From NCBI GenBank assembly GCA_964016885.1, contig CAXHJY010000292.1, forward strand, positions 1-64,000: DNA of 64,000 nucleotides, given 5' to 3'. Source of the stretch: Eledone cirrhosa. Taxonomy: Eukaryota. Below the pieces are notes generated by a model, which saw only the letters and a list, made by a program, of their open reading frames with translations, made no database searches and was not told the DNA's origin. Shown piece by piece: positions 33,143-46,426 of this stretch. Within the stretch, counting starts at the first letter, position 1, and each line of letters starts with the position of its first letter. A program made the translations under genes and the position numbers.

Positions 33143-34060
33143 ATCTTTGCTCCCAAATACAGGGAGTCCTCAACCAATTCCAGCAGCTTCCCGCCTATAT
33201 TAGTGATCCCCTCTGGCTTCTCAACATTCTCTACTAGATATTTTGTTTTAGTCTCATTCATTCTCAGCCCCACACTCATCGACACAGTCTCAACCTCCCG
33301 CATCAAATCCTCTGCCTCCTTCACTGTATTTGTCACCAAAACTATGTCGTCGGCAAATTCACCATCCGATACCTTTTTCGCCCTAACTCTCCTGCTCTGA
33401 GCCGGTGCTACAGTAAAGCCAGAGTCCTGGTGTTTCTCCAGTGCAAGTTGCATACAATAGTCCACTACGATGACAAAAAAGTAGGGAGCCAATGTAGGGA
33501 GCAAAGATTGGGAATACGGAAGATGATGTGGTTGAGAGGAAGAGCAAGGCCTGGGCTGCGTGCCATAGCTTGAGATCGGTGTGGAAGTTGGACCTTCGTA
33601 GAGACCTGAAAGTCCGCCTCTTCATTGCTGTAGTGGAGTCTGTGCTGCTGTATGGGTCTGAGACTTGGACACTGACCAAGAAACTCACTCAGATGGTGGA
33701 TGGGTGCTATACGAGAATGCTGAGGATGGCTCTGAACATTAATCAGTATACACTGAGGATGAAAAACTCAGAGCTGTATGGCAGCATCCCAAAAGTCAGC
33801 TCAAAAGTGACACAGAGGAGACTGAGGTTAGCTGGACATGCTCACCGACATCCAGAGTTGACATTGCACTCAGTACTCCTTTGGGAGCCCCTACATGGAC
33901 ACACTAGAAGAGGAAGACAAAGGTTAAGGTATGTTGATGCCCTCAGGACAGACACTGGTCTGTTGGAGATGCAGGACATGGCAGCGATAATGAGGGACAG
34001 AGACCGCTGGAGAGAACTCGTCCATAGATCTCGGGAATTTTACCCGCCTTAGATAGATAG

Positions 34061-34061
<1 letters not shown>
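33143..34061 (+). mobile_element. RTE-group LINE (family B), 5'-truncated with an inverted 5' segment (33143-33495 minus; 33497-34052 plus)
   Basis: Minus part [33 protein letters not shown]; plus part GAKIG..VESVLLYGSETW..LRLAGHAHRH..RRGR..EFYPP*; (TAGA)n tail. Confidence 0.93.
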
Positions 34062-34126
<65 letters not shown>

Positions 34127-34175
34127 GCATACATATATATATATATATATATAAGATCAAATGATGGTTAAAGGA

Positions 34176-34261
34176 GTTCCATATATTTTATTATGCGCAT
34201 TTCAAAAACAAACATCATCAAGCAATAATATTTGTGTTTTCATCAGATAAAACAGGAGAAC
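34176..34261 (-). ncRNA. Type I hammerhead ribozyme at the 3' end of the left PLE copy
   Basis: Minus strand ttttat-CUGAUGA-stem II-GAAA-tgcgca-UA-ataaaa. Confidence 0.88.
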
Positions 34262-35228
34262 ATGATATGAAGGCTAAAAAACACTTGTTGATAGTGCAGT
34301 TTTAAATCAACATATGAAAAGTGGTTTTAGATTGATGTGTGATATTGGGAAAAATATTTTATTTTGAGAGGGGTGGGGGAGGATGAAAAGGGAAGGAGAT
34401 GAGAGGGAGAGATGGGTGATAGAGAGAAAGAGATAGTTTTTATAACTGAGAGGAGATATATTTTTTACATAGAGGGGTTGAAAACCGTTGGAAGATACTG
34501 TATAAATTAAAAATTTTGAAAATTAACGAAGGGAGGATATGTGCGAGGAAAAAATATTTTATTTAGGGAGGGGGGGGCGATGAAAAAAAGGGGGGAGGAG
34601 ATGAGAGTGAAGGTGGAGAGGGAGAGATGGGTGATAGAGAGAAAGAGATAGTTTTTATAACTGAGAAAAAGATATATTGTTTTAATATAGAGAGGTTGGG
34701 AACCGTTGGAAGATAATGTATAAATTAAAGGAATTTGAAAATTAACGAAGGGAAATTATGTATGAAGATAGAGAGAAAAAAATAATAATTGTGGGTGAAT
34801 ATTCTAACGTCAAAAGAAGAAATGTATGTATTGTGGCAATTTCAAAATTAGCGAAGAGAAAAATTGTTAAGGTTTGTGTGTAGAAGGATTTGAGAAAAAT
34901 AATGTGAAGTTAAAGTTTGTATATTGAATTGATATGTATTAATAATGAGTTCGTTGATGGGGAGAAAAAAAATAATAATAAATTAAGGATGAAATTGAGA
35001 TTAAAAAGATTTATGATAGAGAGAAAAAATAATAATGATTGCGGATGAATATTCAAAATGTCAAAAACAAATGTTATTATTTTACGAGAAGATAGAATGA
35101 GGGTAATGAGTAAACGAGTATTATAGAGTGTATAATGCCCTTTAAAGTAAGGTAGATGGGTATATTTTAAAGAGGTGTATGTATATGTGCCTTTGAGAAA
35201 AGATTCTAAATTGATAAAGAATTGAATA

Positions 35229-37452
35229 TTAACTGTATACTTTGTGAAAAGTTCTATGGAATTTATGCAGGCAGATAGAAAACAAATCTGAGCGTCTATT
35301 TATTATAGAATCTAGGTTAGAGATAATGGTAAATTTTTCATTTAGGCAGAGATTACAGATTTTAGATAGAGAGCTGTTCAAGTATGAGGATGCAGAAGAA
35401 ATCTTTTTCCAAAAGATGTTATATTTAATGTTTTTGTCTTTTAAGGACCATATGAGTTCTGAGAGAGCAGTGTTAGTTCTTTTAAGTTTGTATTTGAAAG
35501 ATGAATGATGATTATAGAGACGAGCTTTAAAAGAGGTGGAAGTGGAGCCAAAATAGGTGAAGGAATTGGTGCTAGTTATAATTTTACATTCATAAATTAA
35601 GTTTTTATCGAGGCAATGGTTGTTGAGAGGACATTTATTTTTAATGCGGCAGTTGCAATTAGAGAGATTATTAATGAGTGATCTAGTGTTATCTATAGAA
35701 GGAATTGGATTGGAGAAGTTGTTTGCGATAGGAATAATAGGAATAATAGTTTCTTGATTTAGAGTTGGATTATGAACATTTAGCGAAGTTGTGTTTGACG
35801 TTGTATTTGGGTTTACAGAAGTTAGCCTAGGGTTTACAATGACGTCGGGAGTACTATTACTGTTATTATGAAATTCAATATTGGAAGGAAGAGATTTAGT
35901 ATTTAATATTTTGTTGTTGTGTTTAGAGATGATGTTGGAAATATTGGAGGATGTAGAATACGAAAATTTGATGGTGTGTTTGTTAAATATTTTACTATAG
36001 ATATGTGAGGGAGGGAAGCATTTATTTAAGGCACTAAAAAATAATTTAGGAATATTGTTATTAATAGAGATGGAGAAAGGAGCATTATACCAGATTATGT
36101 TTTTGTATCTAGGTCTTTTATTAAAATTATTGGAATGGTCATGATTAATTATTCTACTGTAAGTTTTCCTAGAACTTGTTTCTTTATTATATTTGATTTT
36201 GTCTGGATAGCCGGCTTTAGAAAGTGCGTTATTATAGTAATTGGCGTTAGCATCAAAGATGTTTTTATTAGAAGATATGTTAGATATTCTATTTCCAATA
36301 TTATTAACTATAGCATTCTTGATATTGGTAGGATGGTTAGATTTAAAGTTAACATAATTAAGATTCTCATTGTTTTTATGGTAAGGGTAATATAGGCCAG
36401 TGTCAAGATTAAGAGATACATCCAAGAAATTAGCTAGTTTGATACTATTATCAAATTCAATTTTTAGGTTATGTTGGTTAAAGAGATTACGTATATTGTT
36501 CTTAATAATATTAAGTTTAACTATATTGCAATTTAGGATAGTAAAGAGTCCATCGTCACGATAAATTCCACCGCGAAGTTGAGGAATTTTCCGACTCAAA
36601 GAGTTCAAAATGAAGATACCAATTAAATCAGTCAATTGGGATGAATCGGATGCTCCCATTGTGATGTCGAAGTTGTTAGAGGTATCGGCTCTGGTCCAAT
36701 ATTCGTTGTTGAACTCTAGGATGGTTTTACGTGCGGTGAGGATGATGTGAAGTTCATCTGTGGTGATGTCAGAATATTTAAGTGCGAAAGATAGAGCATT
36801 ATTGAGAAGTGAAGGCGAAATGGAGGAATAGTAGCTGGCAATATCGAATTGAATAAATTTTAGTTTGTTTTTATTATCCAATTTGTTGAACCAGCCAATC
36901 ACTTCAGAAGTACCAAACCATAAATTTAGGTTTAAAGAAGAGCAATTAGAACTAACCTGTGGGATAATCCTATCCAAGATGGCTTTACTAACAACCCCCA
37001 GATCAGATTTAGAGGGGGCGATTAATCTAACAGGTAGTTCAGTGCGAAAATTGTTTTTGTGATCCTTGAGATTTATCCTCGGAGTTCTTGGGAGGAATGG
37101 TTCGGTCTTTTTTTCAATGCCAAGTTTTGACATAATCTCATAGGCTTCAAGGTTTATGCATTCTAAATTTTTATGGTTGGTTTTACGATACTTTTTCCTA
37201 AGTTCCTTTAGGATAAGGTTGTTATAATTATCCTTGGAAATACCATATAGGTTATTGGTTTTGTCAGAGTGGACTAAAACATTTTTTGAGGAATTTAGGT
37301 TATAGATTGTGTTCTTGAGATTTACAAGGTGCTCTTGTCCTTTGTAAGGGTATCTCTTGAATTTAAGATTTTTTATTATTTTAGTTAATTCTTCCTCGAA
37401 TTGTGCTAGATTTTTGTTGGAAGGAGGATTTCGTCTAGAATTAAAAAGATGA
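35229..37452 (-). CDS. PLE polyprotein: reverse transcriptase + C-terminal GIY-YIG endonuclease (first ATG at 37133 gives 634 aa; frame open ~106 codons further upstream)
   Basis: Upstream NPP..FEEEL..IKNLKF..VHSDKTNNLY; RT motifs FDIASYYSSI, ITMGASDS, YRDDGL, NFLDVSL; CNCx5Cx5C; LIY..YFGST..FKARLYNH; CNLCLNEK. Confidence 0.95.
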
Positions 37453-37982
37453 TCAAAATTAGCGAAGAGAAAAATTGTTAAGGTTTGTTTGTAGAAGGAT
37501 TTGAGAAAAATAATGTGAAGTTAAAGTTTGTATATGTCATTGATATGTATTAATAATGAGTTCGTTGATGGGGAGAAAAAATTAATAATAAATTAAGGAT
37601 GAAATTGAGATTAAAAAGATTTATGATAGAGAGAAAAAATAATAATGATTGCGGATGAATATTCAAAATGTCAAAAACAAATGTTATTATTTTACGAGAA
37701 GATAAAATGAGAGTAATGAGTAAACGAGTATTATAGAGTGTATAATGCCCTTTAAAGTAAGGTAGATGGGTATATTTTAAAGAGGTGTATGTATATGTGC
37801 CTTTGAGAAAAGATTCTAAATTGATAAAGAATTGAATATTAACTGTATACTTTGTGAAAAGTTCTATGGAATTTATGCAGGCAGATAGAAAACAAATCTG
37901 AGCGTCTATTTATTATAGAATCTAGGTTAGAGATAATGGTAAATTTTTCATTTAGGCAGAGATTACAGATTTTAGATAGAGA
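37453..37982 (-). repeat. Pseudo-LTR-like duplicate of the PLE ORF end and proximal 3' UTR
   Basis: Near-identical direct repeat of 34842-35372. Confidence 0.93.
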
Positions 37983-37996
37983 TAGAGTTTGAGATT

Positions 37997-39901
37997 ATGT
38001 CAAAACTTGGCATTGAAAAAAAGACCGAACCATTCCTCCCAAGAACTCCGAGGATAAATCTCAAGGATCACAAAAACAATTTTCGCACTGAACTACCTGT
38101 TAGATTAATCGCCCCCTCTAAATCTGATCTGGGGGTTGTTAGTAAAGCCATCTTGGATAGGATTATCCCACAGGTTAGTTCTAATTGCTCTTCTTTAAAC
38201 CTAAATTTATGGTTTGGTACTTCTGAAGTGATTGGCTGGTTCAACAAATTGGATAATAAAAACAAACTAAAATTTATTCAATTCGATATTGCCAGCTACT
38301 ATTCCTCCATTTCGCCTTCACTTCTCAATAATGCTCTATCTTTCGCACTTAAATATTCTGACATCACCACAGATGAACTTCACATCATCCTCACCGCACG
38401 TAAAACCATCCTAGAGTTCAACAACGAATATTGGACCAGAGCCGATACCTCTAACAACTTCGACATCACAATGGGAGCATCCGATTCATCCCAATTGACT
38501 GATTTAATTGGTATCTTCATTTTGAACTCTTTGAGTCGGAAAATTCCTCAACTTCGCGGTGGAATTTATCGTGACGATGGACTCTTTACTATCCTAAATT
38601 GCAATATAGTTAAACTTAATATTATTAAGAACAATATACGTAATCTCTTTAACCAACATAACCTAAAAATTGAATTTGATAATAGTATCAAACTAGCTAA
38701 TTTCTTGGATGTATCTCTTAATCTTGACACTGGCCTATATTACCCTTACCATAAAAACAATGAGAATCTTAATTATGTTAACTTTAAATCTAACCATCCT
38801 ACCAATATCAAGAATGCTATAGTTAATAATATTGGAAATAGAATATCTAACATATCTTCTAATAAAAACATCTTTGATGCTAACGCCATTTACTATAATA
38901 ACGCACTTTCTAAAGCCGGCTATCCAGACAAAATCAAATATAATAAAGAAACAAATTCTAGGAAAACTTACAGTAGAATAATTAATCATGACCATTCCAA
39001 TAATTTTAATAAAATACCTAGATACAAAAACATAATCTGGTATAATGCTCCTTTCTCCATCTCTATTAATAACAATATTCCTAAATTATTTTTTAGTGCC
39101 TTAAATAAATGCTTCCCTCCCTCACATATCTATAGTAAAATATTTAACAAACACACCATCAAATTTTCGTATTCTACATCCTCCAATATTTCCAACATCA
39201 TCTCTAAACACAACAACAAAATATTAAATACTAAATCTCTTCCTTCCAATATTGAATTTCATAATAACAGTAATAGTACTCCCGACGTCATTGTAAACCC
39301 TAGGCTAACTTCTGTAAACCCAAATACAACGTCAAACACAACTTCGCTAAATGTTCATAATCCAACTCTAAATCAAGAAACTATTATTCCTATTATTCCT
39401 ATCGCAAACAACTTCTCCAATCCAATTCCTTCTATAGATAACACTAGATCACTCATTAATAATCTCTCTAATTGCAACTGCCGCATTAAAAATAAATGTC
39501 CTCTCAACAACCATTGCCTCGATAAAAACTTAATTTATGAATGTAAAATTATAACTAGCACCAATTCCTTCACCTATTTTGGCTCCACTTCCACCTCTTT
39601 TAAAGCTCGTCTCTATAATCATCATTCATCTTTCAAATACAAACTTAAAAGAACTAACACTGCTCTCTCAGAACTCATATGGTCCTTAAAAGACAAAAAC
39701 ATTAAATATAACATCTTTTGGAAAAAGATTTCTTCTGCATCCTCATACTTGAACAGCTCTCTATCTAAAATCTGTAATCTCTGCCTAAATGAAAAATTTA
39801 CCATTATCTCTAACCTAGATTCTATAATAAATAGACGCTCAGATTTGTTTTCTATCTGCCTGCATAAATTCCATAGAACTTTTCACAAAGTATACATTTA
39901 A
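37997..39901 (+). CDS. PLE RT + GIY-YIG endonuclease, second copy (5'-truncated, lacks the DKT region)
   Basis: 634 aa; differs from the minus copy at four residues (N/I, S/N, R/I, terminal S/I). Confidence 0.95.
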   Translation: MSKLGIEKKTEPFLPRTPRINLKDHKNNFRTELPVRLIAPSKSDLGVVSKAILDRIIPQVSSNCSSLNLNLWFGTSEVIGWFNKLDNKNKLKFIQFDIASYYSSISPSLLNNALSFALKYSDITTDELHIILTARKTILEFNNEYWTRADTSNNFDITMGASDSSQLTDLIGIFILNSLSRKIPQLRGGIYRDDGLFTILNCNIVKLNIIKNNIRNLFNQHNLKIEFDNSIKLANFLDVSLNLDTGLYYPYHKNNENLNYVNFKSNHPTNIKNAIVNNIGNRISNISSNKNIFDANAIYYNNALSKAGYPDKIKYNKETNSRKTYSRIINHDHSNNFNKIPRYKNIIWYNAPFSISINNNIPKLFFSALNKCFPPSHIYSKIFNKHTIKFSYSTSSNISNIISKHNNKILNTKSLPSNIEFHNNSNSTPDVIVNPRLTSVNPNTTSNTTSLNVHNPTLNQETIIPIIPIANNFSNPIPSIDNTRSLINNLSNCNCRIKNKCPLNNHCLDKNLIYECKIITSTNSFTYFGSTSTSFKARLYNHHSSFKYKLKRTNTALSELIWSLKDKNIKYNIFWKKISSASSYLNSSLSKICNLCLNEKFTIISNLDSIINRRSDLFSICLHKFHRTFHKVYI

Positions 39902-40868
39902 TATTCAATTCTTTATCAATTTAGAATCTTTTCTCAAAGGCACATATACATACACCTCTTTAAAATATACCCATCTACCTTACTTTAAAGGGCATTATAC
40001 ACTCTATAATACTCGTTTACTCATTACCCTCATTCTATCTTCTCGTAAAACAATAACATTTGTTTTTGACATTTTGAATATTCATCCGCAATCATTATTA
40101 TTTTTTCTCTCTATCATAAATCTTTTTAATCTCAATTTCATCCTTAATTTATTATTATTTTTTTCTCCCCATCAACGAACTCATTATTAATACATATCAA
40201 TTCAATATACAAACTTTAACTTCACATTATTTTTCTCAAATCCTTCTACACACAAACCTTAACAATTTTTCTCTTCGCTAATTTTGAAATTGCCACAATA
40301 CATACATTTCTTCTTTTGACGTTAGAATATTCACCCACAATTATTATTTTTTTCTCTCTATCTTCATACATAATTTCCCTTCGTTAATTTTCAAATTCCT
40401 TTAATTTATACATTATCTTCCAACGGTTCCCAACCTCTCTATATTAAAACAATATATCTTTTTCTCAGTTATAAAAACTATCTCTTTCTCTCTATCACCC
40501 ATCTCTCCCTCTCCACCTTCACTCTCATCTCCTCCCCCCTTTTTTTCATCCTTTCCCCCCCCTCCCTAAATAAAATATTTTTTCCTCGCACATATCCTCC
40601 CTTCGTTAATTTTCAAAATTTTTAATTTATACAGTATCTTCCAACGGTTTTCAACCCCTCTATGTAAAAAATATATCTCCTCTCAGTTATAAAAACTATC
40701 TCTTTCTCTCTATCACCCATCTCTCCCTCTCATCTCCTTCCCTTTTCATCCCCCCCCCCCTCTCTAAATAAAATATTTTTCCCAATATCACACATCAATC
40801 TAAAACCACTTTTCATATGTTGATTTAAAACTGCACTATCAACAAGTGTTTTTTAGCCTTCATATCAT

Positions 40869-40954
40869 GTTCTCCTGTTTTATCTGATGAAAACACAAAT
40901 ATTATTGCTTGATGATGTTTGTTTTTGAAATGCGCATCATAAAATATATGGAAC
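40869..40954 (+). ncRNA. Type I hammerhead ribozyme at the 3' end of the right PLE copy
   Basis: ttttat(40878-83) CTGATGA(40884-90) aaacacaaatattatt-gctt-gatgatgtttgttttt GAAA(40927-30) tgcgca TC ataaaa(40939-44); distal gttct/ggaac pairing. Confidence 0.9.
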
Positions 40955-41070
40955 TCCTTTAACCATCTTTTGATCTTATATTATGCATACTCCAGTCCCA
41001 CAAACTGTAGAGTGCTTCTTATCCGATATCTGCATTGCTTTATTGTACTACAATAAAACTCACCTCCCAC

Positions 41071-41107
<37 letters not shown>

Positions 41108-41159
41108 GCATATATATATATACATATGCATATATATACATATATATATATACATATGC

Positions 41160-42271
41160 ATCATCATCAGGTTTAGCGTCCGTGTTCCACGCTTGCATGG
41201 GTTTGGACGGGGGTTTTCCCACTTGAGGCAAGAGTGATTGTCTTGCTCGCATAGGACTGTCTGGCGGGTTTTCTACAGTTGGATGCCCTTCCTAACACCA
41301 ACCACATTTACAGTGTGGGGCTGGGCGGTTTTTACCGTGTTGCCTACACGGCCACATTACAGCGTGGACTGTCTGGCGGGTTTTCTACAGCTGGATGCCC
41401 TTCCTAACACCAACCACATTTACAGTGTGGGGCTGGGAGGTTTTTACCGTGTTGCCTACACGGCCACATTTACAGCGTGGACAGTTTGTTTTTTTTTGTC
41501 GTGACACCTACACGATCTCATTTGTTTCGGCCTGGATGTTGTGGGACCAACATAACTTACATTGAAAGGGGCGGTGTGGATGGGGTGGAGGTGGTGGGAC
41601 GGGGGTGTGCTTTGATAGAGATGCCTACTGACTGTAGTAGGTTTTTACTTTGTATTTAGGTAAGGCGGGTCTTCTCTATTACTGAGTACCGCCAAAGGTC
41701 TCGGTCCAGTGACATTGTCTTGGAGAGGTGTAAGCGTGTGAGGTCGGAATTTATCAGCTCGTCCCATGTTTTTCTGGGTCTGCCTACTCTGTGGCTACCG
41801 TCTATCTTTATTGCCCTGCACTTTGTTATACAGCTGTCGTCTTTCATGCGCATCACGTGACCGTACCAACGTAGCCTTCTCTCGAGTAAACAACATCTGA
41901 TCCCTCTTATTTCTAATTTTTTCCTTAGTTCGTTTATGCTTTGCCGTTCAAGTATATTACTATTGCACATCCAGCGGAGCATGCAAGCTTCGTTCCTCTC
42001 TAGTCTGCGTATATCCTCTGCACACAATGCCCAGGTCTCATTGCCATGCAGCATTGCTGTTCGTATGCAGGCATCGTATAACCTGCCTTTCATTTTTAGG
42101 GAGAGCCCTCTAGCGGCTAATAGTGGTATAAGCACTCTGAACTTTTTCCATCCAGTTCTGACTCTAGCTACTGTACTTTCAGAGCACCCTCCCCCACTGC
42201 TGATTTTGTCACCCAGGTAACGGAAGCTGTCCACTATTTCTATAGAACCCTCTGCGCAGTTGAAGGAGCTA
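41160..42271 (-). mobile_element. 5'-truncated RTE LINE (subfamily A2)
   Basis: [51 protein letters not shown]; 3' UTR like 5630-5995. Confidence 0.93.
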
Positions 42272-43974: not shown

Positions 43975-44138
43975 TATCTAAGGCGGGTAAAATTCCCGAG
44001 ATCCATGCACGCGTTCTCTCCAGCGGTCTTTGTCCCTCATTATCGCTGCCATGTCCTGTGTCTCCAACAGACCAGTGTCTGTCCTTAGGGCATCAACATA
44101 CGTTAACCTTGGTCTTCCTCTTCTAGTGTGTCCATGCA
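43975..44138 (-). mobile_element. Family B LINE extreme 3' end
   Basis: [29 protein letters not shown], homologous to 33895-34052. Confidence 0.9.
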
Positions 44139-44176
44139 TTGTGTGCAGAGAGAGGAATGAAGCTTGCATGCTCCGG

Positions 44177-46426
44177 CAAGAGACAGGCATGGAAAGAATG
44201 GAGAACGGGGGGAGCAGGGTACATTACATAGAGACCAAGAGGGAAGCTAGGCGACAAGTATACTTAGCTAGGAGGGAAGCAGAGGATAGGAAATTCAAGC
44301 ATGTTTTGCAACGTGAGGACCAGAAACAGGAGGTATTCAAGATTGCGAAGCAGTGTGTCAGAGATAGTTGTGATGTCATTGGAGAGAAGTGTATCCGGAA
44401 TGATAAAGGTGAGCTTGCCCTCACAAGTGCTGAGAAGAAAGATGCATGGAAGAGTCATTATGATAGATTACTAAATGAGGAGAATGCATGGGGAGAAGAG
44501 ACCCTACCCCAAGTAGACCCTATAGAGGGACCAGCAGTACAAGTCAGCAGCAGCGTAGTAAGTAAGGCAATCAAAGATATGAAGATGGGGAAGGCAACCG
44601 GTCCATCGGCTATAGCTGCCGAGATGCTGAAGGCATCTGGGTCTGTAGGTCACACTATAACCACACGTATCGTTAACCAGGTAATACTAGAAGGTGCCAT
44701 ACCAAAAGATTGGTGCAGTAGCGTCATTGTCAACTGCTACAAAGGTAAAGGCGATGCACTAGATAGAGGAAACTATAGAGGTATGAAGTTGATGGACCAG
44801 GTCATGAAAGTAACAGAAAGAGTTATAGCACAGCTGATTAGGGACCGGGTGAATATAGACGAGATGCAATTTGGGTTTGTACCAGGAAGAGGCACCACTG
44901 ATGCCTCTTCCTTGTGAGGCAATTACAGGAAAAGTACCTAGCTAAATGTAAGCCACTCTACTTGGCATTTGTCGACCTTGCGAAAGCCTTTGACAGAGTT
45001 CCACGTGCTGTAATCTGGTGGGCTCCTAGAAAACTAGGAGTAGATGAATGGCTTGTGAAAGCGGTACAAGCCATGTATAGGGGAGCAGTCAGCAAAGTTA
45101 GGATTAGCAATGAGTATAGCGATGAATTTAGCGTACAGGTTGGGGTCCACCAGGGCTCTGTTCTTAGCCCCTCCTGTTCATCATAGTCCTGCAGTCAATA
45201 ACGGAGGAGTTTAAGACCGGATGCCCATGGGAACTCCTGTATGCTGATGACCTCGCACTCATAGCTGAATCTATGGTAGAACTAGAGAAGAAATTCCAAA
45301 CTTGGAAGCAGGGACTAGAAAGAAAGGGTCTCAAAGTCAACATGACAAAGACTAAGGTCCTTGTAAGTAGACGAGAAAACAAATGCAAACAATAGGTTCA
45401 CAAGAGATGTAGCGGGATCTCAGGAAGCTTAATTAAGAATGTGGGATTCACATGCAGCAGCTGTGCTGAGACAGCACGCAGCAAACAGCCACAGGAAACA
45501 AGTACCACCAATCTCTGGGAGGGCTCTGTAGAAACAGTAGACAGCTTCTGCTACCTAGGTGACCGAATTAGCAGCGGAGGTGGGTGTTCAGAAAGTACAA
45601 TAACTAGGGTAAGAACGGGATCGAAGAAGTTTAGGGAACTACTACCACTGCTAGCTGCAAAAGGCTTCTCCCTCAGAATGAAAGGCAGACTGTATGATGC
45701 GTGTATCCGAACTGCGATGTTGCATGGTAGTGAGACCTGGACGCTGAAGGTGGAAGACTTACGTAGATTAGAGAGAAACGAAGCCTGCATGCTCCGATGG
45801 ATGTGTAACAGTAATATACATGAACGACAAAGCATAAATGAATTGAGAGAGAGACTGAGCATAAGAGGAGTCAAATGCTGTGTGCAGGAGAGGCGGTTGC
45901 GCTGGTATGGACATGTGATGCGTATGAAGGATGACAGCTGCATAAAAAGGTGCAGAGTACTAGAAGTTGATGGAAACCGCGGAGTGGGGAGACCCAAGAT
46001 GACCTGGGATGAGGTGATAAAAGCCGACCTTACCCAATTACACCTCTCAAAGGCAATGACACATGACCGTGACTTCTGGCGTCACGCAGTAATACAGAGT
46101 ACCCGACCTCCCATGGGTACAAGCTGAAGCATATAGACAATATGCCCCAACACCCCTCACCGCAAGGTGGTCGTGGAGGTGCCACGGCAAAAAAGCACCC
46201 AGCCCACACTGTAAAGTGGACGTGTAGGCGCCACGAAAAAGCAGGCAGCACTCACTGTAAATGAGGTTGGTGTTAGGAAGGGCATCCAGCTGTAGAAATC
46301 AAGCCAAATCAGTTCCTGTATGAGCAAGGCATGGTCAGCCAACCAGACACTGCCCACAACAGGACAACCCGTCTAACCCATGCTAGCGTGGAAGAACGGA
46401 CGTAAAACGGTGATGATGATGATGAT
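44177..46426 (+). mobile_element. 5'-truncated RTE LINE (subfamily A1) with frameshifts and a 78-bp deletion
   Basis: Colinear with the reverse complement of 46701-49035; NYRGMKL, QFGF, DLAKAFD, GVHQGS, YADD; (ATG)n tail. Confidence 0.95.

What the first reader, a model, noticed from the sequence alone, without database searches (positions are those of the whole stretch)
40869..40954. Hammerhead ribozymes cap both outer ends of the PLE inverted repeat
The core is intact in both arms, with a long stem II, bulged stem I and palindromic TGCGCA stem III. The arms differ exactly at the cleavage nucleotide (AUC here, AUA at 34192), and both fit the NUH rule. The left arm ends ~40 nt past the cut site, while the right arm has ~90 nt more tail. 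Hammerheads in PLE pseudo-LTRs are established; this instance is read directly from the sequence.
Basis: partly seen in the sequence, partly recalled or inferred. Interest (0 to 1): 0.75.

Follow-up and report, generated by a model that had tools for sequence, protein, structure and literature searches.

The report
Hydra-clade Penelope hammerhead end pair
The two hammerhead-ribozyme motifs are real but ordinary parts of one back-to-back insertion of a very abundant jumping gene, and its thousands of sister copies show that the insertion ends do not fall at the ribozyme's predicted cut, so the element is likely copied from uncut RNA.

Summary
Real motif, known kind. Both arms carry a type I hammerhead (cores at 40884 + and 34246 -), the only two descriptor hits in 64 kb. 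They lie in the pLTR of a Hydra-clade Penelope-like element (RW, DKT, CxCx5C, TA target) with about 25,000 copies of the cut-site 20-mer. Shared stem variants keep pairing. Helix III is predicted to form only in a dimer. The AUC/AUA difference is a private point change (27 AUC against 24,808 AUA). The motifs do not cap the ends: arms stop 43-46 or 134 nt past the cut, one of each in 30 of 33 inverted pairs, which fits the published two RT start sites with an unusually long ~88-nt tail. This copy is defective: a ~1-kb deletion removes its upstream hammerhead and start codon. Extra: about 5,400 arms stop at one point 124 nt upstream of the cut, 48% with a G where the template has C, likely a copied cap that marks the transcription start; there is no pile-up at the cut. 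Cleavage is untested. The scan reported similar Penelope hairpin and run-off patterns before on other DNA.

The parts
40876..40946 (+). Type I hammerhead motif, right (long-tailed) arm; core 40884-40890 and 40927-40930, predicted cut after C40938 (rare AUC variant)
34184..34254 (-). Type I hammerhead motif, left (short) arm; predicted cut after A34192 (family-typical AUA)
40930..40937 (+). Self-complementary AUGCGCAU; predicted 8-bp intermolecular helix III (-10.5 kcal/mol); no shared variant in 158 arms
37990..41072 (+). Right arm: 5'-truncated ORF (to stop at 39901), long 3' UTR/pLTR, hammerhead, tail; ends at the family's long end (+134)
34149..37982 (-). Left arm: truncated upstream pLTR, ORF lacking its start, 3' UTR/pLTR, hammerhead; ends at the family's short end (+43)
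35229..37452 (-). RT plus C-terminal GIY-YIG-type ORF of the Hydra clade (DKT, YRDD, CNCRIKNKC, CNLC, CLH); first ~60 codons missing here
37453..37982 (-). Upstream partial pLTR (530 nt) joined straight to the ORF body; about 1,042 nt of the normal monomer (run-off point, hammerhead, tail, ATG) deleted at a GA microhomology, no GT-AG
40985..41072 (+). About 88-nt one-sided tail between the two end sites; in full monomers it runs on into the 5' UTR and ORF
40989..41013 (+). Small hairpin with a 2-nt 3' bulge starting 5-8 nt behind the short end; a similar, weaker hairpin lies 7 nt behind the long end in full monomers (L061 3892-3909); candidate RT positioning signal (inferred)
40815..40815 (+). 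A at which thousands of family arms begin (mirror 34315 -); likely transcription start of the pLTR promoter
40368..40783 (+). Two ~81% identical, ~200-nt C/T-rich duplications in the 3' UTR, which lengthen the monomer to ~3.66 kb
41073..41160 (.). (TA)n target flank; the other flank is about 34050-34148

Best explanation
The motif is the conserved type I hammerhead of a Hydra-clade Penelope-like retrotransposon, it is predicted to cleave only as a dimer or with protein help, and it sits near both outer ends because each arm of this back-to-back insertion was likely copied from uncut RNA starting 43-46 or 134 nt downstream of the cut site. Shown: motif, clade markers, copy number, two fixed end sites, long/short pairing, pairing-preserving variation, the deletion in this copy. 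Inferred: the protein nicks both strands of a (TA)n target; each DNA end primes reverse transcription at one of two internal RNA sites (as in Poseidon_Ac, PMC11167929); the two cDNAs run towards the RNA's 5' end and are joined head-to-head. Where the template is the short capped leader both cDNAs run off at A40815, giving the common ~430-bp mini hairpins; where it is the 3' end of a long or tandem transcript they copy the ORF, as here. The ribozyme most likely trims multimeric transcripts or removes the capped 124-nt leader from the mRNA at another stage, and does not set insertion ends.
For: Descriptor: 2 hits in 64 kb; hits in 29 of 79 relative loci, 37 sense and 2 antisense, 0 in 20 shuffles. 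In 15 distinct relative motifs helix III is wholly or nearly self-complementary with different letters, H17 = A in 11 (this stricter scan required the first loop pair). Family variation: 0 of 17 core and helix III positions carry a shared variant against 14 of 54 and 4 of 24 flank positions; 9 of 24 stem positions where a transition keeps the pair vary, 0 of 20 where it would break it, Fisher p = 0.002; A-U, G-U and G-C all occur at 10.1-11.1 (158 arms). Cofold of two copies gives the double hammerhead, -41.5 against 2 x -14.7 kcal/mol for AUA; the monomer active fold is 6.5 kcal/mol above its minimum. Ends: of 101 positionally sampled arms 52 short, 43 long, 4 read-through, 2 other; 30 of 33 tail-out neighbours are long + short (30 of 31 long/short-only pairs, p = 3e-8); partner arms differ by a median 0 of 110 nt against 8 between loci. 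Either arm can reach further 5'. Arms starting at the cut: 290 pattern hits, 18 of 30 true starts, against 349 and 11 of 30 at a control 3 nt upstream. Literature: canonical HHRs, RWK, DKT, CxCX5C and (TA)n in the Hydra clade, one-sided 30-40 bp tail (PMC8557442); two internal RT start sites, HHR mutants do not affect insertion, protein-assisted cleavage (PMC11167929); dimer-type PLE HHRs with low activity (PMC4209133).
Against: No cleavage, RNA-end or expression data. No Rfam hammerhead match. Position 10.1-11.1 is mostly A-U, not the usual G-C. Variation is nearly all one-sided: the covariation score on 37 distinct variants does not beat the shuffle control (165 of 500 reach it), though it beats all slid controls. 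The p = 0.002 test treats related sites as independent, and its 158 arms include loci picked for AUC or for likeness to the window. Conservation could also reflect promoter or protein-binding needs. One RNA read twice cannot be told from two RNAs of one source locus. The short end abuts a TA-like stretch, so it is placed only to within +43 to +46.
Confidence: 0.8

Rival explanations
1. Ribozyme cleavage defines the element's ends or makes the template (cut, possibly circularised RNA), as the first reader's title implies and as PMC4209133 proposed.
For: Tandem monomers of ~3.66 kb exist and could give unit RNAs and circles; a religated circle rebuilds the whole motif.
Against: No 3' ends at the cut among 101 arms (the sample needs 8 nt past the cut, so exact-cut ends could not appear; ends cluster at +46 and +134). 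No pile-up of 5' ends at the cut. No mutation excess at H17: 127 non-A against a mean of ~237 per position. Thousands of arms stop at a fixed point upstream, which a circle would not give.
Confidence: 0.1
2. The inverted arm comes from fold-back (self-priming) of one cDNA or of an antisense template at palindromes such as CATATG, not from two primings (idea in PMC3846280).
For: The run-off point lies in CATATG; many joints overlap by ATAT or other microhomology; partner arms are near-identical.
Against: Either the long or the short arm can be the one reaching further 5'; arms stop at the same point when the partner ends elsewhere, and many joints have untemplated filler between the arms.
Confidence: 0.15
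3. The motif is no longer catalytic and is kept as a structural or protein-binding RNA element, for example a dimer link through the palindrome.
For: Predicted monomer misfolding, worst for AUC; weak A-U closing pair; PAc HHR is dispensable for insertion in vitro.
Against: All catalytic positions are free of shared variants while N7 and loop II vary, the pattern expected of selection on catalysis.
Confidence: 0.15

Closest known systems
Hydra clade of C-terminal EN+ Penelope-like elements (Craig et al. 2021, PMC8557442; seen: passages, section 11, supplement search hits)
   Same: RW motif, DKT, CxCx5C linker, CxxC and CxH in the EN, (TA)n target, type I HHR in the pLTR, inverted 5'-truncated copy with one-sided tail.
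   Different: Monomer ~3.66 kb (paper: generally under 3 kb); RWT for RWK; tail ~88 nt (paper: 30-40 bp for PLEs); AUA triplet and U-A at 15.2-16.2 where 15 of 15 relative motifs have C-G; 15-bp stem II. The N-terminus differs by eye from the listed Hydra-1_Obim; best database hits are 31-42% identical.
Poseidon_Ac of the green anole (Frangieh et al. 2024, PMC11167929; seen: abstract, main text, part of Methods)
   Same: Two fixed end sites downstream of the HHR with the tail between them; AC-rich context at the long end; AT-rich targets; uncut RNA as template.
   Different: Here the HHR is 213 nt upstream of the ATG, not overlapping it; genomic pairs use one site per arm almost without exception, whereas the paper saw no strand difference in start site in vitro.
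Metazoan PLE min-HHRs and dimer-type type I HHRs (Cervera and de la Pena 2014, PMC4209133; seen: abstract, Results, Discussion)
   Same: Long helix II, palindromic minimal helix III, predicted dimer activity, opposite-strand pairs 100-700 bp apart.
   Different: No unpaired base between 9 and 10.1 in the best register; A-U or G-U instead of G-C at 10.1-11.1; longer stem I (8 bp).
Untemplated 5' G of full-length L1 and SVA insertions (review PMC4859970; seen: passages)
   Same: Excess G just 5' of a fixed 5' end, read as a copy of the m7G cap.
   Different: Here it occurs at the joint of head-to-head arms, where microhomology confounds many cases.

Membership tests
Type I hammerhead ribozyme | Core CUGANGA ... 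GAAA ... UH in order | tested here: met
   no shared variant in 158 arms except N7
Type I hammerhead ribozyme | Stems I and II flanking the core, kept by variation | tested here: met
   stem I 99.7%, stem II 96.9% of cells paired; changes mostly one-sided; shuffle control not exceeded
Type I hammerhead ribozyme | Helix III able to form | tested here: inconclusive
   not in the monomer (P <= 0.001); 8 bp in the predicted dimer
Type I hammerhead ribozyme | Match to a curated Rfam hammerhead model | tested here: not met
   no hammerhead family at E <= 10 in 40780-41050. A library match, not a defining trait of the class
Type I hammerhead ribozyme | Self-cleavage after H17 | not testable with these tools
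   needs an assay
Hydra-clade PLE | Single ORF with RT and C-terminal GIY-YIG-type EN | tested here: met
   YRDD; IYECK...YFG...FKARLYNH; 358 homologues. Pfam gives no hit
Hydra-clade PLE | RWK and DKT motifs | tested here: met
   RRLRWT in full monomers (RWK in most relatives); HSDKTNN
Hydra-clade PLE | CxCX5C linker; CxxC and CxH in EN | tested here: met
   CNCRIKNKC, CNLC, CLH
Hydra-clade PLE | (TA)n insertion, partial tandem or inverted structure, one-sided tail | tested here: met
Hydra-clade PLE | Placement in an RT tree with the named clades | not tested
   no tree built; assignment rests on motifs
Non-LTR retrozyme | Short non-coding tandem repeats with an HHR in each unit | tested here: not met
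   units are coding 3.66-kb monomers or inverted stubs

The most novel reading that the evidence does not exclude
This family is a genome-scale record of the PLE reaction: one capped, uncut leader RNA (start A40815) is read twice by a protein dimer from two hairpin-marked sites 88 nt apart, one per DNA end, and both cDNAs run off at the cap; the hammerhead, centred in this 260-nt leader, is a switch whose palindrome pairs two RNAs and whose cleavage removes cap and leader, sorting RNAs between template and message.
Probability: 0.3. Interest if true: 0.62.

Novelty: new member of a known kind. Interest (0 to 1): 0.3.

Why it matters
The flagged motif itself is expected. The family is a good test system for an open question, what PLE hammerheads do: it is young, has about 25,000 copies, and gives exact predictions for the transcription start (40815), the cut (40938) and the two RT starts (+46, +134). 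The genomic record argues that uncut, capped RNA is the template, and that assays should use AUA, not the window's AUC copy.

Tried and rejected
(1) AUC as a scar of RT crossing a cut-and-rejoined junction. It looked recurrent in long arms, but that came from a query carrying the rare C. Genome-wide: 27 AUC (11 long, 16 short arms by my reading), 127 non-A, below the per-position mean. Rejected. (2) Arms from two different source RNAs: L026 and L016 looked so, but in the positional sample 19 of 25 pairs differ by 0-1 of 110 nt; not supported, not excluded. (3) The upstream join as a spliced intron: no GT-AG, GA microhomology. Rejected. (4) Rfam: only microsatellite miRNA and snoRNA noise. (5) repeat finder was swamped by (TA)n. 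(6) RNA reads: no RNA holder listed, so no reads were laid. (7) First control for the 5' G at non-hotspot ends was small and noisy, G in 8 of 24, and does not support the cap reading. (8) Two look-ups for the deletion length failed on mismatches; the 1,042-nt figure comes. (9) No earlier scan note at this place or sequence.

Full report
Observation. The motif is there as described. On the + strand: stem I 40876-40883, CUGAUGA 40884-40890, a 36-nt stem-loop II, GAAA, UGCGCA, UC, then the 3' strand of stem I. The mirror copy lies on the - strand with A at 34192. A descriptor I wrote (core, stem II of at least 4 bp, stem I of at least 4 bp) finds only these two sites in 64 kb and 1 site in 20 shuffles of the element. 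Rfam has no hammerhead match.

The element. The arms 37990-40981 and 37140-34149 are 99.5% identical and point tail-out, between (TA)n tracts. The ORF has YRDD, HSDKT, CNCRIKNKC, a C-terminal GIY-YIG-type region, CNLC and CLH; full monomers elsewhere add MDYY...KDIPIP...RRLRWT. These are the markers listed for the Hydra clade (PMC8557442 section 11). Pfam does not recognise the protein; 358 homologues at 31-42% identity were found among 7,993 scored candidates. I built no tree. Tandem monomers have periods of 3,662 and 3,656 nt. In them the sequence after the long end runs on for 257 nt into the ORF body, with the ATG 213 nt past the cut. In the window the upstream pLTR jumps straight into the ORF at a GA microhomology, losing about 1,042 nt with the hammerhead and start codon. 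So this copy is defective, and its two hammerheads lie on opposite strands and cannot pair in cis.

Is it a selected ribozyme? In 158 family arms (75-99% identical; drawn from L002-L030, L065-L090, L092-L151) no core or helix III position has a variant shared by 5 or more arms (0 of 17), against 14 of 54 and 4 of 24 in the flanks; N7 and loop II vary. Shared stem variants fall only where a transition keeps the pair (9 of 24 against 0 of 20, p = 0.002, sites treated as independent). Among 79 metagenome loci with related ORFs, 29 hold a descriptor hit, 37 sense and 2 antisense, none in 20 shuffles; helix III is self-complementary with different letters and H17 is mostly A. Folding predicts that helix III does not form in the monomer, that AUC lets the core pair with helix III (probability 0.99), and that two copies fold into the double hammerhead (gain 12.1 kcal/mol for AUA, 5.7 for AUC). 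This matches the dimer-type PLE hammerheads of PMC4209133.

AUC versus AUA. The exact AUA 20-mer occurs 24,808 times, 29,541 with one mismatch, so single variants average about 237 per position; position 17 has 127, of which 27 are C. The C is one of 10 substitutions between the arms. It is a private change.

What sets the ends. I fetched 60 regions around the first 100 exact hits on contig C1, which gave 101 arms: 52 end at +36 to +55 (mostly +43 or +46), 43 at +133 to +136, 4 read through, 2 other. Of 33 tail-out neighbours 30 are long plus short; partners are near-identical, and either may reach further 5'. PMC11167929 showed in vitro that a PLE nicks and extends both strands, starts RT at two internal sites whose spacing is the tail, uses uncut RNA, and cleaves its hammerhead only with protein. 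The one-sided tail is known (PMC8557442, PMC3846280); here it is about 88 nt. Following an earlier scan note I checked for hairpins: a bulged hairpin starts 5-8 nt behind the short end, with shared variants in its loop, its bulge and one wobble-keeping stem position (99 arms), and a weaker similar one starts 7 nt behind the long end (29 arms, little variation, so not tested by covariation).

The 5' run-off point. Of 57 sampled arms ending less than 160 nt upstream of the cut, 27 stop within 4 nt at window 40813-40816. Genome-wide 5,377 arms have a non-template base before A40815, 2,557 of them G; a control two bases in has 650 hits (slightly different pattern). In the first 100 rows G:A is 41:15 against 18:33 (second pair counted by hand; p about 1e-4, run with 14 A). 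Of 99 fetched joints, 4 were flagged as template continuing, 61 have the base explained by the inverted partner (25 G), and 34 are free: G in 13 at -1 against 5 at -2, p = 0.053. A small control at other ends gave G in 8 of 24. So the fixed 5' end is solid; the cap reading, by analogy with L1 and SVA (PMC4859970), is suggestive only. A TSS in the pLTR is known for Penelope and Chlamys-3. By contrast, arms starting at the cut are about as rare as at a nearby control (about 170 against 130 by extrapolation from 30 loci each; arms preceded by the template base by chance are missed).

Mechanism. Most likely the RNP primes one cDNA from each target end, at the two sites, on uncut RNA; the cDNAs are joined head-to-head. 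Leader templates give ~430-bp hairpins with two hammerheads; long templates give structures like this one. The hammerhead is near both ends because it lies just upstream of the RT starts. Its cleavage role (trimming multimers, or removing the cap and 124-nt leader) is inferred and untested.

Novelty. Hammerheads in Hydra-clade pLTRs, inverted copies and tails are published. I found no paper reporting a capped run-off point or strict long/short pairing (searches; the library lacks most subscription papers, and I did not read the supplements of PMC11167929, PMC4209133 or the 2026 bioRxiv preprint, of which I saw only the first fifth). Earlier scan notes describe like patterns on other DNA; they are unchecked and not counted as support. 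Verdict: new member of a known kind, interest 0.3.

Noticed in passing
G000 genome-wide: Many ~430-bp tail-out mini insertions with two opposed hammerheads about 240 nt apart, both arms starting at the same A; a possible source of dsRNA or outward transcripts.
   Followed up: yes
L061-L062 (G000:C6:38071000-38090999): Head-to-tail array of at least five ~3.66-kb monomers, the natural place for cis dimer hammerheads; the two monomers read whole in L061 show the same frame break near codon 490 of the ORF.
   Followed up: partly
window 33498-34052 (+), 41656-42270 (-), 43991-44917 (+): Fragments of other LINE-like RT elements (weak RVT_1 hit for the last); the PLE sits in the TA tract just after the first fragment's 3' end.
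   Followed up: partly
window 35690-35950 (-), between thumb and linker of the ORF: About 70-aa Asn/Thr/Pro-rich in-frame insertion absent from most relatives, recalling the N-rich inserts of Adineta PLEs (PMC3846280).
   Followed up: no
window 40894 and 40923: A C.U mismatch at the fourth position of stem II is kept in nearly all 158 arms; possible tertiary or protein contact.
   Followed up: no
L203 (2263 and 2400), L184 (2826 and 5418): Relative loci with two different hammerhead motifs; in L203 they are 137 nt apart after the ORF.
   Followed up: no
protein P0105: A Hydra-clade PLE protein annotated in NCBI as 'GATA zinc finger domain-containing protein 14-like', probably a misannotation.
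   Followed up: no
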